From the IMG/VR virus record IMGVR_UViG_2778261535_000010: a stretch of 18,578 nucleotides of DNA. One strand, given 5' to 3'. Position 1 is the first letter of the stretch. Every line of letters begins with the position of its first letter. Below are positions 9,577-18,578 of this stretch, in pieces. The translations under genes were made by a program, and so were the position numbers. Below the pieces are notes generated by a model. It did not search any database and was not told the DNA's origin. It saw only the letters and a program-made list of their open reading frames with translations. The DNA comes from a virus. Taxonomy: Duplodnaviria; Heunggongvirae; Uroviricota; Caudoviricetes.

Positions 9577-10753
9577 GAAACCCGACATTGATTTTGAAAA
9601 AGTGCTGAATGACAGCGGGATGCCCGCGACAGAGGCCGAAATTACGGCGGCATTTAAAGCCACCGTGCAGGCGGAAGGGTTCGTCACAAATACGTCGAGA
9701 ATGTCACCTTTCTGGCGGCTGATTTCGAAGATTGTCACCACGCCGGTGTTATGGCTGCGGGCGGCGCTGATCGATGTGGTTCTGCGCAATATGTTTGTCG
9801 CGACGGCCACCGGTCCAATGTTGCGCCTGCTGGCCTGGGCGGTCCATATCGTGCCTAAACCCGCCAGCGCTGCCGCTGGCGTGCTGCGGTTCTACAAGCT
9901 GAACGCGGCGGATGTGGTCGTCGTGCCAGCCGGAACACTGGTGCAAACCGAGCGTATTAACGGCGTGGTTTACGTGCTGGCCGTGAATGAAGACGTGACG
10001 CTGCCTGCCGGGGTTGAAAGCGGGCTGGTTCCCGTCACGGCGACCGGCACCGGTAGCGGCTATAACCTTGCGCCCGGCTATTACCGGATCTTACCTGTTG
10101 CGGTGGCCGGGATTGCCAGCGCGGTAAACGAGGACGAATGGCTGATTACGCCAGGGGCTAACGAGGAAAGCGACGACGAGCTGCGCGACCGGACCCGCAA
10201 CCAGTTTAATCTGGTAGGTAATTACCACTCTGACGCTATTTACCGCAGCATGATTGCCAGCGTGCTGGGCCTGAGCGTTGATCGCATTTACTTTTTGCAC
10301 GATGCCCCGCGTGGGCCGGGTACGGCAAATGCTTACCTGTTGCTGGACAGTGGCGAAATATCACAGCCCTATATTGATGCGGTTAACGACTATGTGAATA
10401 CCCAGGGCCACCACGGACACGGTGATGATCTGCAGTGTTATGCCATGCCGGAAACCAGCCACACCCTGGCGGTGACGGTCTACGTCAAAAGCGTGGAAAA
10501 CATGGAAGCGGAAGACCTGAACGCGTTAAAAACCGGTATTACTGACCTGATTCGTTGCGCGTTTCGCGAGAACGCCAATTACGACGTTAAAAAGACGCAG
10601 CCCTATTCGCGCTATTCCTTTTCGAATCTGGGCCGCGAGATCCACAAGGCTTTTCCGGTTGTCGATTCACTGCATTTTTCACTGACGGATATTGTCAGCG
10701 AACTGTCGGTCCCGCGCCTGTCAGGGTTAACGGTGGAGGTTGAAAATGACTGA
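9569..10753 (+). CDS. baseplate J-like protein (gpJ/gp47/gp6 family)
   Basis: ATG at 9569 with GAGG 7 nt upstream (the track ORF begins at 9518 without an RBS). About 394 aa. Position between the wedge and gpI-like genes matches P2 W-J-I order. Confidence 0.7.
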   Translation: MTEKPDIDFEKVLNDSGMPATEAEITAAFKATVQAEGFVTNTSRMSPFWRLISKIVTTPVLWLRAALIDVVLRNMFVATATGPMLRLLAWAVHIVPKPASAAAGVLRFYKLNAADVVVVPAGTLVQTERINGVVYVLAVNEDVTLPAGVESGLVPVTATGTGSGYNLAPGYYRILPVAVAGIASAVNEDEWLITPGANEESDDELRDRTRNQFNLVGNYHSDAIYRSMIASVLGLSVDRIYFLHDAPRGPGTANAYLLLDSGEISQPYIDAVNDYVNTQGHHGHGDDLQCYAMPETSHTLAVTVYVKSVENMEAEDLNALKTGITDLIRCAFRENANYDVKKTQPYSRYSFSNLGREIHKAFPVVDSLHFSLTDIVSELSVPRLSGLTVEVEND

Positions 10754-14160: not shown

Positions 14161-14674
14161 TGGTGAAGGGATCGCCATGCAAAACATGCTGGTTTCACCT
14201 TCCATGCAGTTTCAGGAGAAGGACCAGTCGGGCCAGACATCGAGCACGGCCAATGCTGAACAGGGTATCAAGGCCAAAGAGCTGCGCGTGTCGGGTCTGG
14301 TGACATTCGACGACGAAGCCGTTTTACAGCGGCTTTTCCAGCTGGCATCCGCAACCGAAGCCAGCGGCGCACTGAAAAAGTACCGCGTCGCAAATGCGAC
14401 GGCAACGGCTATCAACCTTCGTGAAGCCACGTTCACCGGCCAGATTGATGCCGTACCGCAGGAGGATCGCCTTGCCTGGCAGGTAAGTTTTACCCTGCGT
14501 GAAAAAGGCAGCGTCCCGGAAAAACGACAGGCCCGCAAAGGTAATGCGACGGCCAGCACCAAGCAAACGGGGTCAAAGGGCGCGGGTTCGGCTGCCGGTG
14601 CTGACGAGCCAGCCGACAAAATGAGCTGGTTTGAAGAAAAGGTCTTAAAGCCGGTCAACGATGCGCTGGGGTAA
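14132..14674 (+). CDS. hypothetical phage tail protein (possibly gpU-like tube initiator)
   Basis: 180 aa; alternative start at 14177 has a better RBS (GAAGGG). Assignment rests only on size and its position just upstream of the hub/spike gene. Confidence 0.35.
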   Translation: MSQTALLALDGEGIAMQNMLVSPSMQFQEKDQSGQTSSTANAEQGIKAKELRVSGLVTFDDEAVLQRLFQLASATEASGALKKYRVANATATAINLREATFTGQIDAVPQEDRLAWQVSFTLREKGSVPEKRQARKGNATASTKQTGSKGAGSAAGADEPADKMSWFEEKVLKPVNDALG

Positions 14675-14681
14675 TTAAACG

Positions 14682-16406
14682 ATGAAACCAATTAAACGCC
14701 TGTACCTTTCCTCTGATCCGGTCCATCTGATTGACTGCAATATCGTGCTGGAGCTGAACGCGTGCGGTCGGGGGTTTATTACGGCGGGGACCGAGACAGA
14801 TTACACCGGTAAAATAGTGCGTATCGATGTTGGTTATGATGGTCTGGTCCTGCGCTGGTTTACCGGGTATGTCGAGCGGTCACAGCCTGCTGATAATGGA
14901 ACATGCCGGTTGTTCGTGCGTGAGCTGGTAGGCATCTTTGATAAATTGTGGCCGTGTTCTTTCCAGCATCCAACGCTGCGCCAGATTACTGACTGGATAA
15001 GTGAGCAAAGCGGGCTGGCCGTCACAACGCCGGTCGGCGCTGCTTATGCAGATAAACCGATCCCCCACTTTACGCACAGCGGCACGGGCTATCAGCTTCT
15101 TGCCATTCTGGGCCGCGCATTTTCAGTGACGGATTATCTCTGGTATCAGCTGCCGGACGGGGATGTCTTCGTCGGCGCTGCGGATCACAGTCTTTTTGCG
15201 GGTAAACCAGTGGAGATCCCGCACGAATTTAGTCAGGCATCGGCAGGCGGTAATTCAATGGTTGTGCCGATGATTCAGAGCCTGCGCCCCGGCGTTGACG
15301 TCAACGGCCATCGGCTAAACCAGGTCCGGCTAAATAACGACGATATGGCAATCACCTGGCAGCCACGCAGCAAAGCCAACGGCCAGCCATTGCAAAAATC
15401 ACCGATTCAGCGGCAGATTGAAAACGCATTCCCGGAGCTGGCAAGCGGCCTGCATCTTCCAAAGTTCGCCAGAGTGGAAGCACCAAGCGAGGATGTATCA
15501 GGGGGGAATATTGCCGATCCATTCCGCCCGCGCTATGCCGTGGATCTCCAGCTGCTTGACGAAGACGGCAAGCCAGCCGCAAATACGCCGGTTTATTCTG
15601 CCGTTCCGCTACCTGTACCAATGGCGGGGAGCGAGTCGGGAATGTTCCAGTTTCCGCCCCCTGGCACGCTGGTTGAAGTCGGGTTCACGGAGGGGCGGCA
15701 GGATAAGCCCTTTGTGCGCCAGATTATGGCGGAGGGGCATAACCTGCCAGCGGTTAAACCCGGCGAGCAATTGCAGCAACAGCGCGATGGTGTATCGCAG
15801 CGCGTGACGGTTGCCGGAGACTGGGAACGCCAGACGGACCAGACAATTCGCGAAAACTCCATGACTCGCGAAGTCACCACCGACGAAGAGATCCGCAAAG
15901 TGGTTGTCCGTGAAACTACGGTCCAGGCAACAGATAAAACAACCGTGCTGGGCACGGCCACACTTCTGGCCGGGGCGGTGGTCCATATCAGCGAGGGTGA
16001 TTACAGTATTGGCACATCCGGCAACCTGACAGTAACCTGCAGCAAGGACAATTCCGTCAGTGTTGGCCGGAACGTGAAACGGGACGTCGCGGGCAATGTT
16101 ACAGACGACGTGAAAGGGAATGTCACGTCAAACGTCAGCGGCGCACTGACTGAAAAAATCAGCGGCATCCGCCGAAGTGTGGCCCAGGCGCAACAGTTGA
16201 TTGCCCCGGTGGTAAAACTGGGAAGCGAAGAGATTAACGTCCTGACACTACTCACTGACACCCTGGACGTGGTGAGGGTGCTGGCAGAGACTGCCGCATC
16301 ACATACTCACCCCAATACGGGGACCAGCGGGCAGGCTGCGCAGTTCACCGCAACGGCCACTAAAACCGGTACATTGAAAAGCAAATACGGCCCCCTGATA
16401 GCCTGA
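14682..16406 (+). CDS. baseplate hub/central spike protein (VgrG-like architecture; gpV-like C-terminus, possibly fused to a gpD-like N-terminus)
   Basis: 574 aa. The C-terminal region has octapeptide V-x-G repeats (DVAGNVTD / DVKGNVTS / NVSGALTE / KISGIRRS) visible as 24-nt periodicity around 16057-16170, and an H-x-H motif (SHTHP, about 16301-16309) like spike apex iron sites. It is the last gene before att, as gpD is in P2. Confidence 0.55.
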   Translation: MKPIKRLYLSSDPVHLIDCNIVLELNACGRGFITAGTETDYTGKIVRIDVGYDGLVLRWFTGYVERSQPADNGTCRLFVRELVGIFDKLWPCSFQHPTLRQITDWISEQSGLAVTTPVGAAYADKPIPHFTHSGTGYQLLAILGRAFSVTDYLWYQLPDGDVFVGAADHSLFAGKPVEIPHEFSQASAGGNSMVVPMIQSLRPGVDVNGHRLNQVRLNNDDMAITWQPRSKANGQPLQKSPIQRQIENAFPELASGLHLPKFARVEAPSEDVSGGNIADPFRPRYAVDLQLLDEDGKPAANTPVYSAVPLPVPMAGSESGMFQFPPPGTLVEVGFTEGRQDKPFVRQIMAEGHNLPAVKPGEQLQQQRDGVSQRVTVAGDWERQTDQTIRENSMTREVTTDEEIRKVVVRETTVQATDKTTVLGTATLLAGAVVHISEGDYSIGTSGNLTVTCSKDNSVSVGRNVKRDVAGNVTDDVKGNVTSNVSGALTEKISGIRRSVAQAQQLIAPVVKLGSEEINVLTLLTDTLDVVRVLAETAASHTHPNTGTSGQAAQFTATATKTGTLKSKYGPLIA

Positions 16407-16477
16407 CAAAAAGCGGCATAACCGCACACATCACCAGACACCACAGAACGCGCCACAGCAGGCGCAAATATTAAAGG

Positions 16478-16515
16478 TCGCCAACGTGCGGCCTTTCGTT
16501 CGTTCGTTCAACAGC
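16478..16515 (+). terminator. putative intrinsic terminator of the late operon
   Basis: GGUCGC/GCGGCC stem (one G-U pair) with a 6-nt loop, followed by the U-rich UUUCGUUCGUUCGUU, about 70 nt after the hub/spike stop. Confidence 0.35.
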
Positions 16516-16952
16516 GGCCCACAGCGTAAGCGACAGCAGGCAGACGGAAGCGGATCCAGGACGGAAACGGCGCTACACCGCACCCGCCTGCGCAGTTTGG
16601 ATCATAAAAATTTTGCAAAAGAAATTTTGCGCAAAGCACCCCGCCAGCCTGCGCCGCTGATGGGATTTTGCATCCTGCGGGCGTTTGCACGCTGCGCAAA
16701 GATTTGCAGCACTTTGCAAAAGTCACCGCGCAGTCAGTCGCTAACTGACTGGATAACATGATGTTTTTAAAAGGATCGTTTTGGTTTTCGTGACGATCAA
16801 AATGATTCGGTGGCATCCGGTAGTTTTCGGACGCGGATATCGTGAAGCCTTGCGCGGCGCGGGCTGGCGGCAGGTTTGCTTTGATTTGGGTTTTGCAAAA
16901 TGATGCACGAAGATTTGATAAAAGAATCTACAGCGAAGGGGGGGGAAGTATT

Positions 16953-16984
16953 AAAAAACCCCGTTTTGTGGACGGGGTTTGTTT
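16953..16984. terminator. bidirectional hairpin terminator
   Basis: CCCCGT (16959-16964) and ACGGGG (16972-16977) form a 6-bp stem with a 7-nt loop, flanked by AAAAAA on the 5' side and TTTGTTT on the 3' side. On the minus strand it is followed by six U. Confidence 0.45.
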
Positions 16985-17005
16985 GATGTGGTCAATGTGT
17001 GGACG
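16967..17005 (+). promoter_or_regulatory. candidate arm-type integrase binding sites (three direct repeats)
   Basis: TGTGGACG at 16967-16974, TGTGGTCA at 16987-16994 and TGTGGACG at 16998-17005, within 80 bp of the att core. They resemble the P2 Int arm-site consensus (TGTGGACA) as I recall it. Confidence 0.45.
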
Positions 17006-17045
17006 TTGTAAGAAATAAATCCATTTATTTCAGTAGATTACAGGC

Positions 17046-17072
17046 AAAAAATAAGCCCGTGTAAGGGAGATT
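17046..17072. other. P2-type attachment site core (prophage-host junction, attR or attL)
   Basis: AAAAAATAAGCCCGTGTAAGGGAGATT matches the 27-bp P2 att core from memory. It coincides with the 3' terminator half of cyaR. Phage-type sequence lies to the left and host genes to the right. Confidence 0.65.
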
Positions 17073-17132
17073 ACACAGGCTAAGGAGGTGGTTCCTGGTA
17101 CAGCTAGCATTTTATGGGTTATGTTTTTCAGC
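17046..17132 (-). ncRNA. cyaR: CyaR (RyeE) Hfq-dependent small RNA
   Basis: The reverse complement reads GCTGAAAAACATAACCCATAAAATGCTAGCTGTACCAGGAACCACCTCCTTAGCCTGTGTAATCTCCCTTACACGGGCTTATTTTTT, matching the E. coli CyaR sequence as I recall it, including the terminator hairpin and U tail. It lies downstream of yegQ as in E. coli. Confidence 0.85.
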
Positions 17133-17139
17133 GAAACGG

Positions 17140-17216: not shown

Positions 17217-18578
17217 TCACTTACCGTGGGGGTTACGCGTGGTTTCCCCGGAGAAATTACGCATCAGCAGCGCGTAATTTAGCTCAAGATCCTGCGGCAC
17301 CGGGATCCACACAGTATAACCATCGCCTGGTGCGACCGGCATAGCTTCACCTTTGGCGTTTTCCATATGCTCAAGGGTAAAGTTAATGTTGCCTTGCGGC
17401 GTCATCAGCTCAAGGCTGTCGCCAACGGAGAATTTATTTTTCACCGCTACCGCCGCGAGGTCGCCCTTGCGCTCACCGGTAAACTCACCAACAAACTGCT
17501 GGCGGTCAGAAACTGAATAACCGTATTCGTAGTTCTGATAATCGTCGTGAGTATGACGACGCAGGAAACCTTCGGTATAGCCACGATGCGCCAGACCTTC
17601 CAGAGTTTCCAGCAGGCTGGTATCGAATGGTTTGCCCGCAGCGGCATCATCGATAGCTTTACGATAAACCTGTGCGGTGCGTGCGCAATAGTAGAAAGAT
17701 TTGGTACGGCCTTCGATTTTCAGCGAATGCACGCCCATTTTGGTCAGGCGTTCTACATGGGCGATGGCGCGCAGATCTTTCGAGTTCATGATGTAAGTGC
17801 CGTGCTCATCTTCAAACGCGGTCATATACTCGCCCGGACGCTGGGCTTCTTCGATCATAAACACTTTGTCAGTTGGTGCGCCGATACCCAGCGTCGGCTC
17901 AACATTTTGCACCGGAATCGGCTCGTACTTGTGTACGATGTTGCCAACGTCATCTTCTTTCCCTTCCTGGACGTTGTACTCCCAGCGGCAGGCGTTGGTG
18001 CAGGTGCCCTGATTCGGATCGCGCTTGTTGATGTAGCCAGAGAGCAGGCAGCGACCAGAGTAGGCCATACACAGCGCGCCGTGAACGAAGATCTCTACCT
18101 CCATATCCGGCACCTGATTGCGGATCTCTTCAATCTCTTCCAGCGACAGCTCGCGAGAGAGGATCACGCGGGTCAGGCCCATTTGCTGCCAGAATTTCAC
18201 CGTCGCCCAGTTCACGGCGTTAGCCTGTACCGAGAGATGGATCGGCATTTCAGGGAAGTGCTCACGCACCAGCATAATCAGCCCTGGATCGGACATAATC
18301 AGCGCATCCGGCCCCATTTCCACCACCGGTTTCAGGTCACGGATAAAGGTTTTCAGCTTGGCGTTGTGCGGTGCAATGTTGACCACGACATAAAACTTTT
18401 TCCCCAGCGCATGGGCTTCATTAATGCCGAGCTGAAGATTTTCGTGGTTGAATTCGTTGTTGCGCACACGCAGGGAGTAACGCGGCTGGCCCGCATAAAC
18501 AGCATCTGCGCCATAAGCGAAAGCGTAACGCATATTTTTCAGCGTTCCCGCCGGGGAAAGGAGTTCCGGTTTAAACAT
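17217..18578 (-). CDS. yegQ: peptidase U32 family protein YegQ (tRNA hydroxylation protein TrhP)
   Basis: Complete 453-aa ORF; the window ends exactly at its start codon. MFKPELLSPAGTLKNMRYAFAYGADAVYAGQPRYSLRV... matches E. coli YegQ as I recall it. Has the conserved neighbourhood with cyaR. Confidence 0.85.
   Translation of the reverse strand: MFKPELLSPAGTLKNMRYAFAYGADAVYAGQPRYSLRVRNNEFNHENLQLGINEAHALGKKFYVVVNIAPHNAKLKTFIRDLKPVVEMGPDALIMSDPGLIMLVREHFPEMPIHLSVQANAVNWATVKFWQQMGLTRVILSRELSLEEIEEIRNQVPDMEVEIFVHGALCMAYSGRCLLSGYINKRDPNQGTCTNACRWEYNVQEGKEDDVGNIVHKYEPIPVQNVEPTLGIGAPTDKVFMIEEAQRPGEYMTAFEDEHGTYIMNSKDLRAIAHVERLTKMGVHSLKIEGRTKSFYYCARTAQVYRKAIDDAAAGKPFDTSLLETLEGLAHRGYTEGFLRRHTHDDYQNYEYGYSVSDRQQFVGEFTGERKGDLAAVAVKNKFSVGDSLELMTPQGNINFTLEHMENAKGEAMPVAPGDGYTVWIPVPQDLELNYALLMRNFSGETTRNPHGK

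What the first reader, a model, noticed from the sequence alone, without database searches (positions are those of the whole stretch)
16967..17005. Three direct TGTGGACG / TGTGGTCA / TGTGGACG repeats next to the att core look like arm-type integrase sites
Three 8-bp direct repeats in the same orientation, spaced 20 and 11 bp apart, lie 40-80 bp from the core. This is the layout expected for arm-type Int binding sites, and the motif matches the P2 Int arm consensus as I recall it. The first repeat is embedded in the bidirectional terminator hairpin, so arm binding and transcription termination may share the same DNA.
Basis: partly seen in the sequence, partly recalled or inferred. Interest (0 to 1): 0.45.

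Follow-up and report, generated by a model that had tools for sequence, protein, structure and literature searches.

The report
P2-type integrase arm sites at attR
Two of the three repeats are the already-described integrase-binding sites of phage P2's attachment-site arm, sitting at the end of a P2-family prophage inserted in the cyaR small-RNA gene. The third repeat is a lineage-specific extra copy inside a terminator hairpin that the integrase evidently does not need.

Summary
TGTGGACG (16967-74), TGTGGTCA (16987-94) and TGTGGACG (16998-17005) are direct repeats 20 and 11 bp apart, 40-79 bp from a core (17046-17072) that matches the P2 attP core 27/27 and overlaps the CyaR terminator.

Repeats 2 and 3 are the P2 P arm itself. 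The stretch annotated in P2's GenBank record as the Int-bound "P arm" aligns without gaps, with both octamers and their 11-bp spacing identical.

Relatives of this prophage encode an Int 87% identical to P2 Int.

Repeat 1 is different. It lies in the loop and 3' stem of a terminator hairpin and maps outside P2's Int site. It occurs in only one of about 40 hairpin lineages found upstream of 156 P arms. Near-identical Ints (N-terminal domain 64-65/65) serve phages whose P arm lacks it. One such match among that many lineages is roughly a 10-20% chance event.

Verdict: a known P2-type attR P arm, with a third octamer that is unproven and dispensable. Low novelty.

The parts
16953..16983 (.). Terminator-like hairpin (stem CCCCGT/ACGGGG extended by A/T pairs). 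It has an A-run on its 5' side and TTTGTTT on its 3' side. It is not homologous to the P2 ogr terminator.
   Evidence: (I12). It shares 11/24 positions with the P2 terminator at the equivalent location.
16967..16974 (+). Repeat 1, TGTGGACG, in the hairpin loop and 3' stem. This is a lineage-specific extra copy of the arm octamer, and its function is unproven.
   Evidence: It is present only in the window lineage, always 20 bp before repeat 2, and it is absent from P2, TP, SI7 and about 40 other lineages.
16987..16994 (+). Repeat 2, TGTGGTCA. This is the first Int arm-type site of the P arm and is identical to the P2 site.
   Evidence: together with the P2 record's annotation.
16998..17005 (+). 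Repeat 3, TGTGGACG. This is the second Int arm-type site of the P arm and is identical to the P2 site. Its eighth base varies G/A among relatives.
16983..17010 (+). Stretch equivalent to the P2 site annotated as Int-bound 'P arm' (P2 24293-24320). It is 23/28 identical, and all five differences lie outside the octamers.
17014..17047 (+). Stretch equivalent to the P2 annotated IHF site (P2 24324-24357), 26/34 identical. It contains the GAAATAAATCCwTTTATTTCA block that is conserved in nearly all P2-type P arms.
17046..17072 (+). att core, 27/27 identical to the P2 attP core. It overlaps the 3' terminator of cyaR. It is the only copy in the window.
17049..17134 (-). CyaR (RyeE) sRNA gene, the host target of P2-type integration.
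   Evidence: Rfam RF00112, 100.7 bits, E 2.5e-20. PMC3032704 lists cyaR as a P2-type prophage insertion site.
17217..18578 (-). Host gene yegQ, about 98% identical to E. coli yegQ. It marks the host side of the attR junction.

Best explanation
The region is the right junction (attR = P arm, core, host B') of a Peduoviridae prophage. The prophage has an Irrigatiovirus/HP1-like structural module and carries the phage P2 int/att module, and it is inserted in the terminator of the host sRNA gene cyaR. Repeats 2 and 3 (TGTGGTCA-atg-TGTGGACG) are the two arm-type sites of the P arm. In P2 these are bound by the N-terminal domain of the heterobivalent tyrosine integrase. IHF bends the DNA between arm and core, so that Int molecules bridge arm and core during integration and, together with Cox, during excision. 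Repeat 1 is an extra copy of the octamer that happens to lie in the loop and 3' stem of the adjacent terminator hairpin. It is confined to one lineage, it is not required by the cognate Int, and it is most likely fortuitous or at most a dispensable accessory site. Shown here: sequence identity and colinearity with the annotated P2 sites, the octamer pair in the partner arm, and the P2-type Int in relatives. Inferred: actual Int and IHF binding in this prophage.
For: CyaR lies at 17049-17134 on the minus strand. The core is 27/27 identical to P2, and the whole stretch from P arm to core is 77/90 identical with no indels. The P2 record annotates a terminator, an Int P arm, an IHF site, the core, a Cox site and an Int P' arm in this order. 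Both P-arm octamers are identical in the window. [quoted passage not shown] The related prophage in E. coli GN06156, at the same site, has an Int 87% identical to P2 Int. Its attL carries TGTGGACAcagTGTGGACA inside the 3' end of int. In 79 of 80 int loci the P' arm has exactly two repeats 11 bp apart. All 156 P arms sampled follow the same plan of hairpin, two octamers, AT-rich IHF block and core, spread over about 40 hairpin lineages and several core types. Only the window lineage has a third exact octamer. Contigs with the extra octamer (L034/L049, L036/L056) and without it (L047/L051, L046/L061, L044/L060) encode Ints that are 98-100% identical, and the arm-binding N-terminal 65 residues are 64-65/65 identical in four of the five. 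The free phage SI7, which shares the upstream DNA, has a 2+2 layout and a plain hairpin. The structural genes are of the P2/HP1 family.
Against: The window does not contain int or the other prophage end, so the cognate Int and the P' arm are inferred from relatives that are 92-97% identical. No binding experiment exists for this prophage. For repeat 1, the per-lineage chance of an exact same-strand TGTGGWCR within about 45 bp is only about 0.002. The octamer is unchanged in five hairpin variants whose neighbouring loop bases differ (TTT, TT, CTT, CCT). It lies 31 bp, about three helical turns, from the identical repeat 3. A real accessory role therefore cannot be dismissed.
Confidence: 0.85

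Rival explanations
1. Repeat 1 is a real fifth arm-type Int site. It would give this lineage a 3+2 arrangement in which a site overlapping the terminator hairpin tunes intasome or excisome assembly, or couples Int occupancy to transcription across the ogr-less late-operon end.
For: Repeat 1 is an exact copy of the proven P2 site TGTGGACG, in the same orientation, 20 bp from repeat 2 and 31 bp from repeat 3, so roughly on the same helical face. It is invariant in five hairpin variants from E. coli-like and Citrobacter-like hosts while the adjacent loop bases change, and the search anchor left TGTGGAC free. When an AbiH cargo gene is inserted, the hairpin stays with the arm rather than with the late operon. 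The naive per-lineage chance is about 0.002.
Against: One exact hit among about 40 independent hairpin lineages is expected by chance with probability of roughly 0.1-0.2 (53 positions x 4/65536 per lineage, one or two strands). Only three mutational events support 'invariance', which gives p of about 0.05-0.12. Background divergence of about 8% predicts fewer than one change in 7 free bases anyway. Near-identical Ints work with two-site P arms. No P or P' arm elsewhere has three sites. The 20-bp spacing differs from the invariant 11 bp.
Confidence: 0.2
2. Repeat 1 is a non-functional relic of the mosaic junction. The hairpin/arm boundary is where different structural modules are joined to the same int/att module, and a partial duplication or illegitimate recombination involving the arm left a copy of the octamer there.
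For: L041 has an arm identical to the window's from GATG through to the core but a different hairpin. Homology to SI7 ends at 16902, and homology to the AbiH-bearing relatives breaks at 16963, inside the hairpin's 5' stem, with AAAACCCCG microhomology on both sides of the cargo. Repeat 1 is identical to repeat 3, including the variable eighth base, in the window.
Against: No flanking sequence beyond the 8 bp is duplicated: tttTGTGGACGggg versus atgTGTGGACGttg. In relatives repeat 3 ends in A while repeat 1 keeps G, so the two copies are not evolving as a recent duplicate pair.
Confidence: 0.1
3. None of the repeats is an integrase site, and the cluster is a by-product of terminator and AT-rich junction sequence.
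For: No binding data exist for this particular prophage.
Against: Repeats 2 and 3 are identical to the annotated P2 Int P-arm site. The 20-mer GATGTGGTCAATGTGTGGAC is conserved exactly next to at least four different core types in Serratia, Yersinia, Pectobacterium, Citrobacter, Kosakonia, Buttiauxella and Escherichia, while the flanks vary. The partner arm carries the same motif at the same 11-bp spacing.
Confidence: 0.02

Closest known systems
Phage P2 attP P arm (NC_001895 24293-24320, Int-bound; with the IHF site at 24324-24357 and the core at 24356-24382)
   Same: The core is 27/27 identical. Both arm octamers and their 11-bp spacing are identical. The distance from arm to core is the same, with no indels. 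The IHF block is homologous (26/34). A rho-independent terminator lies immediately upstream. The integration target is the cyaR terminator.
   Different: The upstream terminator is unrelated in sequence (11/24) and contains an extra TGTGGACG. In P2 the terminator ends 4 bp before the Int site and holds no octamer. The upstream genes are not ogr/D; instead there is an HP1/Irrigatiovirus-type baseplate gene followed by 550 bp without ORFs. Here the site is seen as attR of an integrated prophage, not as attP.
Salmonella phage SI7 / SW3 (Peduoviridae, Irrigatiovirus) attP
   Same: The structural module and the upstream non-coding DNA are the same (93% over window 16400-16902). The arm motif is of the P2 type, TGTGGACGcttTGTGGACA, and the P' arm is TGTGGACAcaaTGTGGACA. 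The order is int, C, cox.
   Different: SI7 has a different core (…CACCATCCCTGTCTTCC…), so its integration site differs. Its hairpin lies about 35 bp further from the arm, with a plain loop and no third octamer.
Phage lambda attP arm sites (P1, P2 / P'1, P'2, P'3). This comparison is from my own knowledge and was not tested here.
   Same: Lambda also uses a heterobivalent tyrosine integrase whose N-terminal domain binds arm-type direct repeats, with IHF bending the DNA between arm and core. It has five arm sites, which is what a functional repeat 1 would give this lineage.
   Different: The motif is different. Lambda's three-site arm has contiguous sites about 10-11 bp apart, whereas here the putative third site is 20 bp away and inside a terminator hairpin. 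There is no evidence here that different subsets of sites are used for integration and excision.

Membership tests
P2-type att site (P arm of attP/attR) | A core identical or near-identical to the P2 27-bp core, located at the host target (the cyaR terminator) | tested here: met
   The core is 27/27 identical at 17046-17072. It overlaps CyaR at 17049-17134. cyaR is listed as a P2-type insertion site in PMC3032704.
P2-type att site (P arm of attP/attR) | Two direct arm-type repeats matching tgTGGaCa, 11 bp apart, on the arm | tested here: met
   TGTGGTCA at 16987 and TGTGGACG at 16998 are identical to the P2 annotated Int P-arm site. The consensus comes from PMC3448106.
P2-type att site (P arm of attP/attR) | An IHF site between the arm sites and the core | tested here: inconclusive
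   The stretch is 26/34 identical to P2's annotated IHF site at the same position. The best match to WATCAANNNNTTR has 2 mismatches, against 1 in P2. Binding was not tested.
P2-type att site (P arm of attP/attR) | A complementary P' arm with the same octamer pair, overlapping the 3' end of int | tested here: inconclusive
   The P' arm is not in the window. It is present in relatives: GN06156 attL, L056, which is the same contig as L036 and is the closest relative, and 79 of 80 int loci.
P2-type att site (P arm of attP/attR) | A cognate P2-type tyrosine integrase with an N-terminal arm-binding domain | tested here: inconclusive
   int lies outside the window. Relatives with the same hairpin and arm encode an Int 87% identical to P2 Int (58/65 in the N-terminal domain).
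P2-type att site (P arm of attP/attR) | Physical binding of Int to the arm repeats | not testable with these tools
   This needs EMSA or footprinting. The only evidence here is identity to the site annotated as Int-bound in the P2 record.
Three-site arm (lambda P'1-P'2-P'3 type) | Three arm-type sites at regular spacing of about one helical turn, conserved together among relatives that use the same Int | tested here: not met
   The spacing is 20 and 11 bp. The third octamer is absent in phages with 98-100% identical Int and in about 40 other lineages.
Intrinsic (rho-independent) terminator | A GC-rich stem-loop followed by a U-run, more stable than shuffled sequence | tested here: met
   The + strand folds at -17.8 kcal/mol (z -4.6) and is followed by UUUGUUU. 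The - strand folds at -12.8 kcal/mol (z -3.9) and is followed by UUUUUU. Termination itself was not tested.

The most novel reading that the evidence does not exclude
In this Irrigatiovirus-like lineage the P2-type integrase may have gained a fifth arm site inside the terminator hairpin, one that is occupied in vivo. This would give a lambda-like asymmetric 3+2 arm layout. Int bound over the terminator DNA could influence read-through between the late region and int in the free phage, or between host and prophage in the lysogen, or it could bias integration against excision.
Probability: 0.17. Interest if true: 0.35.

Novelty: already known. Interest (0 to 1): 0.12.

Why it matters
The finding mainly serves as a correct annotation. 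It fixes the prophage boundary as attR at cyaR. It identifies the recombination module as P2-type even though the structural genes are HP1/Irrigatiovirus-like. It shows that the int/att module is exchanged between Peduoviridae lineages as a unit whose left edge is the junction between the terminator and the arm. The comparative survey also documents how rigid the P2-type P arm is: the same 20-mer, the same 11-bp spacing and the same IHF block occur across many genera and several core types. Only the third octamer could add something new, and the evidence for it is weak.

Tried and rejected
1) I looked for the exact junction in 5,426 complete E. coli genomes. No place covered at least 80% of the query. 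The best matches were AbiH-bearing relatives at about 90% identity, plus three arm-only hits.

2) I tried to read the primary P2 footprinting literature. PMC206961 is not held, and the supplement of PMC3448106 (Fig. S4, arm repeats) is not held. The evidence for Int binding therefore rests on the P2 GenBank feature table and on the text of PMC3448106.

3) I tested for constraint on repeat 1 with anchors that left it free. Only five hairpin variants were found, representing three mutational events, which is too few to be significant.

4) Rfam hits at the E-value threshold over the hairpin (rimP leader 24 bits, isrJ 23 bits, PsrR1 18 bits) are all far below their gathering scores. I rejected them as matches driven by a generic terminator hairpin.

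5) I considered the near-match TGTGGATG about 53 bp upstream of the P arm in P2-type phages. It is the end of the ogr coding sequence (…MWM*) and mismatches the conserved C, so it is not an arm site.

6) I ran a covariation test on the structured-looking 16600-16910 region. The stems are nearly invariant and show no compensatory changes, so the question remains unresolved.

7) Literature searches for an explicit statement that cyaR is the P2 locI site found only the E. coli W genome table.

Full report
**Observation.** All are on the + strand, with start-to-start spacing of 20 and 11 bp. In the whole 18,578-bp window the degenerate motif TGTGGWCR occurs six times against 2.3 expected, and three of the six fall in this 39-bp stretch. 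Repeat 1 sits in a hairpin, AAAAAACCCCGT / TTTGTGG / ACGGGGTTTGTT, at 16953-16983. As RNA this hairpin is much more stable than shuffled sequence on both strands: -17.8 kcal/mol (z -4.6) on the + strand and -12.8 kcal/mol (z -3.9) on the - strand. On the - strand it is followed by six U.

**Context.** Rfam places the sRNA gene CyaR/RyeE on the minus strand at 17049-17134 (100.7 bits). The next gene is yegQ, about 98% identical to E. coli yegQ. Left of the junction are phage genes: a P2-family major capsid, a Baseplate_J protein, an HP1 ORF34-type baseplate protein, a tail-collar fibre and a tape measure. The DNA up to 16902 is 93% identical to Salmonella phages SI7 and SW3 (Peduoviridae, Irrigatiovirus). 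The sequence at 17046-17072, AAAAAATAAGCCCGTGTAAGGGAGATT, is 27/27 identical to the annotated attP core of phage P2. It is the only copy in the window. cyaR is a documented insertion site of P2-type prophages (PMC3032704). The region is therefore attR (P arm, core, host) of a P2-family prophage.

**What the repeats are.** The P2 reference record annotates the following features in order:
- a rho-independent terminator (24265-24288)
- protein_bind Int 'P arm' (24293-24320)
- an IHF site (24324-24357)
- the core (24356-24382)
- a Cox site
- the Int 'P' arm' (24470-24496), overlapping the end of int

The window aligns to this stretch without a single indel from the P arm to the end of the core, with 77/90 identical positions. 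Both octamers of the P2 P arm, TGTGGTCA-atg-TGTGGACG, are identical. Repeats 2 and 3 are therefore the P2 P-arm Int sites.

The window lacks the other prophage end, so I used relatives. E. coli GN06156 carries a related prophage at the same site, about 95% identical over window 14200-16963. Its integrase is 87% identical to P2 Int. Its attL has TGTGGACA-cag-TGTGGACA inside the 3' end of int, exactly as in P2. Among 80 viral contigs encoding this Int family, 79 have two such repeats 11 bp apart at the end of int, and none has three. One of them, L056, is the same contig as L036, the closest relative that has the window's hairpin. The complementary arm therefore does carry the octamer.

**Repeat 1.** Mapped onto P2, repeat 1 falls inside the terminator and outside the Int site, and the two terminators are unrelated (11/24). 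I collected P arms by scanning for the 20-mer GATGTGGTCAATGTGTGGAC:
- 23 true arms came from one-genome-per-species bacterial contigs, covering Serratia, Yersinia, Pectobacterium, Citrobacter, Kosakonia, Buttiauxella, Escherichia and others, with at least four core types.

All arms share one plan: a terminator hairpin, a T-run, the two octamers, a GAAATAAATCCwTTTATTTCA block and the core. The hairpins fall into about 40 sequence clusters. Only the window's cluster contains an exact extra TGTGGWCR, and it is always 20 bp before repeat 2.

Searches whose anchors left the octamer free found five variants of this hairpin: CCCCG + TTT, TT, CTT or CCT + TGTGGACGGGG. They come from E. coli-like and Citrobacter-like hosts, and the octamer is unchanged in all of them. 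That is suggestive but rests on only three mutational events. With about 8% variable positions nearby, fewer than one change would be expected in the seven free bases.

The naive chance of an exact same-strand hit within about 45-53 bp is 0.002-0.003 per lineage. That gives roughly 0.1 (one strand) to 0.2 (both strands) for at least one hit among about 40 lineages. This is my own arithmetic on the counts.

**Dispensability.** Dispensability is the stronger argument against repeat 1.
- Contigs with the extra octamer (L034/L049, L036/L056) and contigs with plain hairpins (L047/L051, L046/L061, L044/L060) encode Ints that are 98-100% identical. The arm-binding N-terminal 65 residues are identical or differ at one position in four of the five.
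- L041 has an arm identical to the window's from GATG up to the core, but a plain CCCCGCAAATGCGGGG hairpin.
- The free phage SI7 has a 2+2 layout and a plain hairpin further upstream.

The same integrase therefore recombines with two-site P arms. If repeat 1 binds Int at all, it is an accessory site.

**Mechanism.** The following is inferred from the P2 system. The Int N-terminal domain binds repeats 2 and 3. IHF bends the AT-rich block at 17014-17047. The Int core-binding and catalytic domains act at 17046-17072. With Cox bound on the P' side at attL, the attL x attR synapse excises the prophage. The hairpin most plausibly ends rightward transcription of the late region. In the circular phage it would also end leftward C-int transcription that has crossed attP. 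A terminator abutting the P arm is a general feature of the family, but overlap of an octamer with the terminator is not.

**Verdict.** It is unsupported for the third repeat, which I rate at about 0.17-0.2 probability of being a real accessory Int site. Novelty is low.

Noticed in passing
window 16407-16950: This is a 550-bp stretch between the last baseplate gene and the terminator with no convincing ORF. It contains at least six TTTGCR/TTTGCAAA motifs and long-range inverted repeats (16641-57 with 16854-70 at 94% complementarity; 16705-21 with 16891-907). It folds far better than shuffles on both strands (z -5.2 and -6.5). It is 92-95% conserved in SI7 and the UViG relatives, and it matches no Rfam family. 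It could be a structured ncRNA ending at the hairpin, or a DNA-level protein-binding array. No compensatory changes were available to decide between these.
   Followed up: partly
L005 2766-3850 (E. coli GN06156), corresponding to window ~16963: In 19 complete E. coli genomes and several UViGs, the related prophage carries a roughly 1.1-kb cargo encoding an AbiH-family abortive-infection protein on the minus strand. The cargo is inserted exactly at the 5' flank of the hairpin, with AAAACCCCG microhomology on both sides. The window lacks this cargo.
   Followed up: partly
L008 ~9900-9935 (GN06156 attL, host side): Just outside the attL core, on the yegR side, lies a decayed P-arm-like sequence, ATCGATGTGGTCAATGGAAGACGGTGACCAGG. 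It appears to be a fossil of an earlier P2-type prophage at the same site, comparable to the ogr-D' remnant listed for K-12 in PMC3032704.
   Followed up: no
window 16984-17045 compared with L041, L006, L047: The same int/att module (arm identical up to the core, Int 98-100% identical) is attached both to P2/ogr-D-type and to Irrigatiovirus/HP1-type structural modules. The mosaic boundary lies at the junction between the terminator and the arm.
   Followed up: partly
loci L009-L033 and L129-L201 (P arms from many genera): The 20-mer GATGTGGTCAATGTGTGGAC and the GAAATAAATCCwTTTATTTCA block are conserved exactly next to at least four unrelated core sequences: the cyaR type, …CACCATCCCTGTCTT…, …GTCACCnnTTACTGACATTGCGG… and others. 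Arm recognition is therefore held fixed while core specificity changes.
   Followed up: partly
window 17054-17081 compared with L016, L020, L034, L036: The CyaR terminator stem inside the core differs between E. coli-type hosts (GCCCGTGTAA…TTACACAGGC) and Citrobacter-type hosts (GCCTGCGTAA…TTACGCAGGC) by paired changes that keep the stem. Prophages in each host carry the matching core variant.
   Followed up: no
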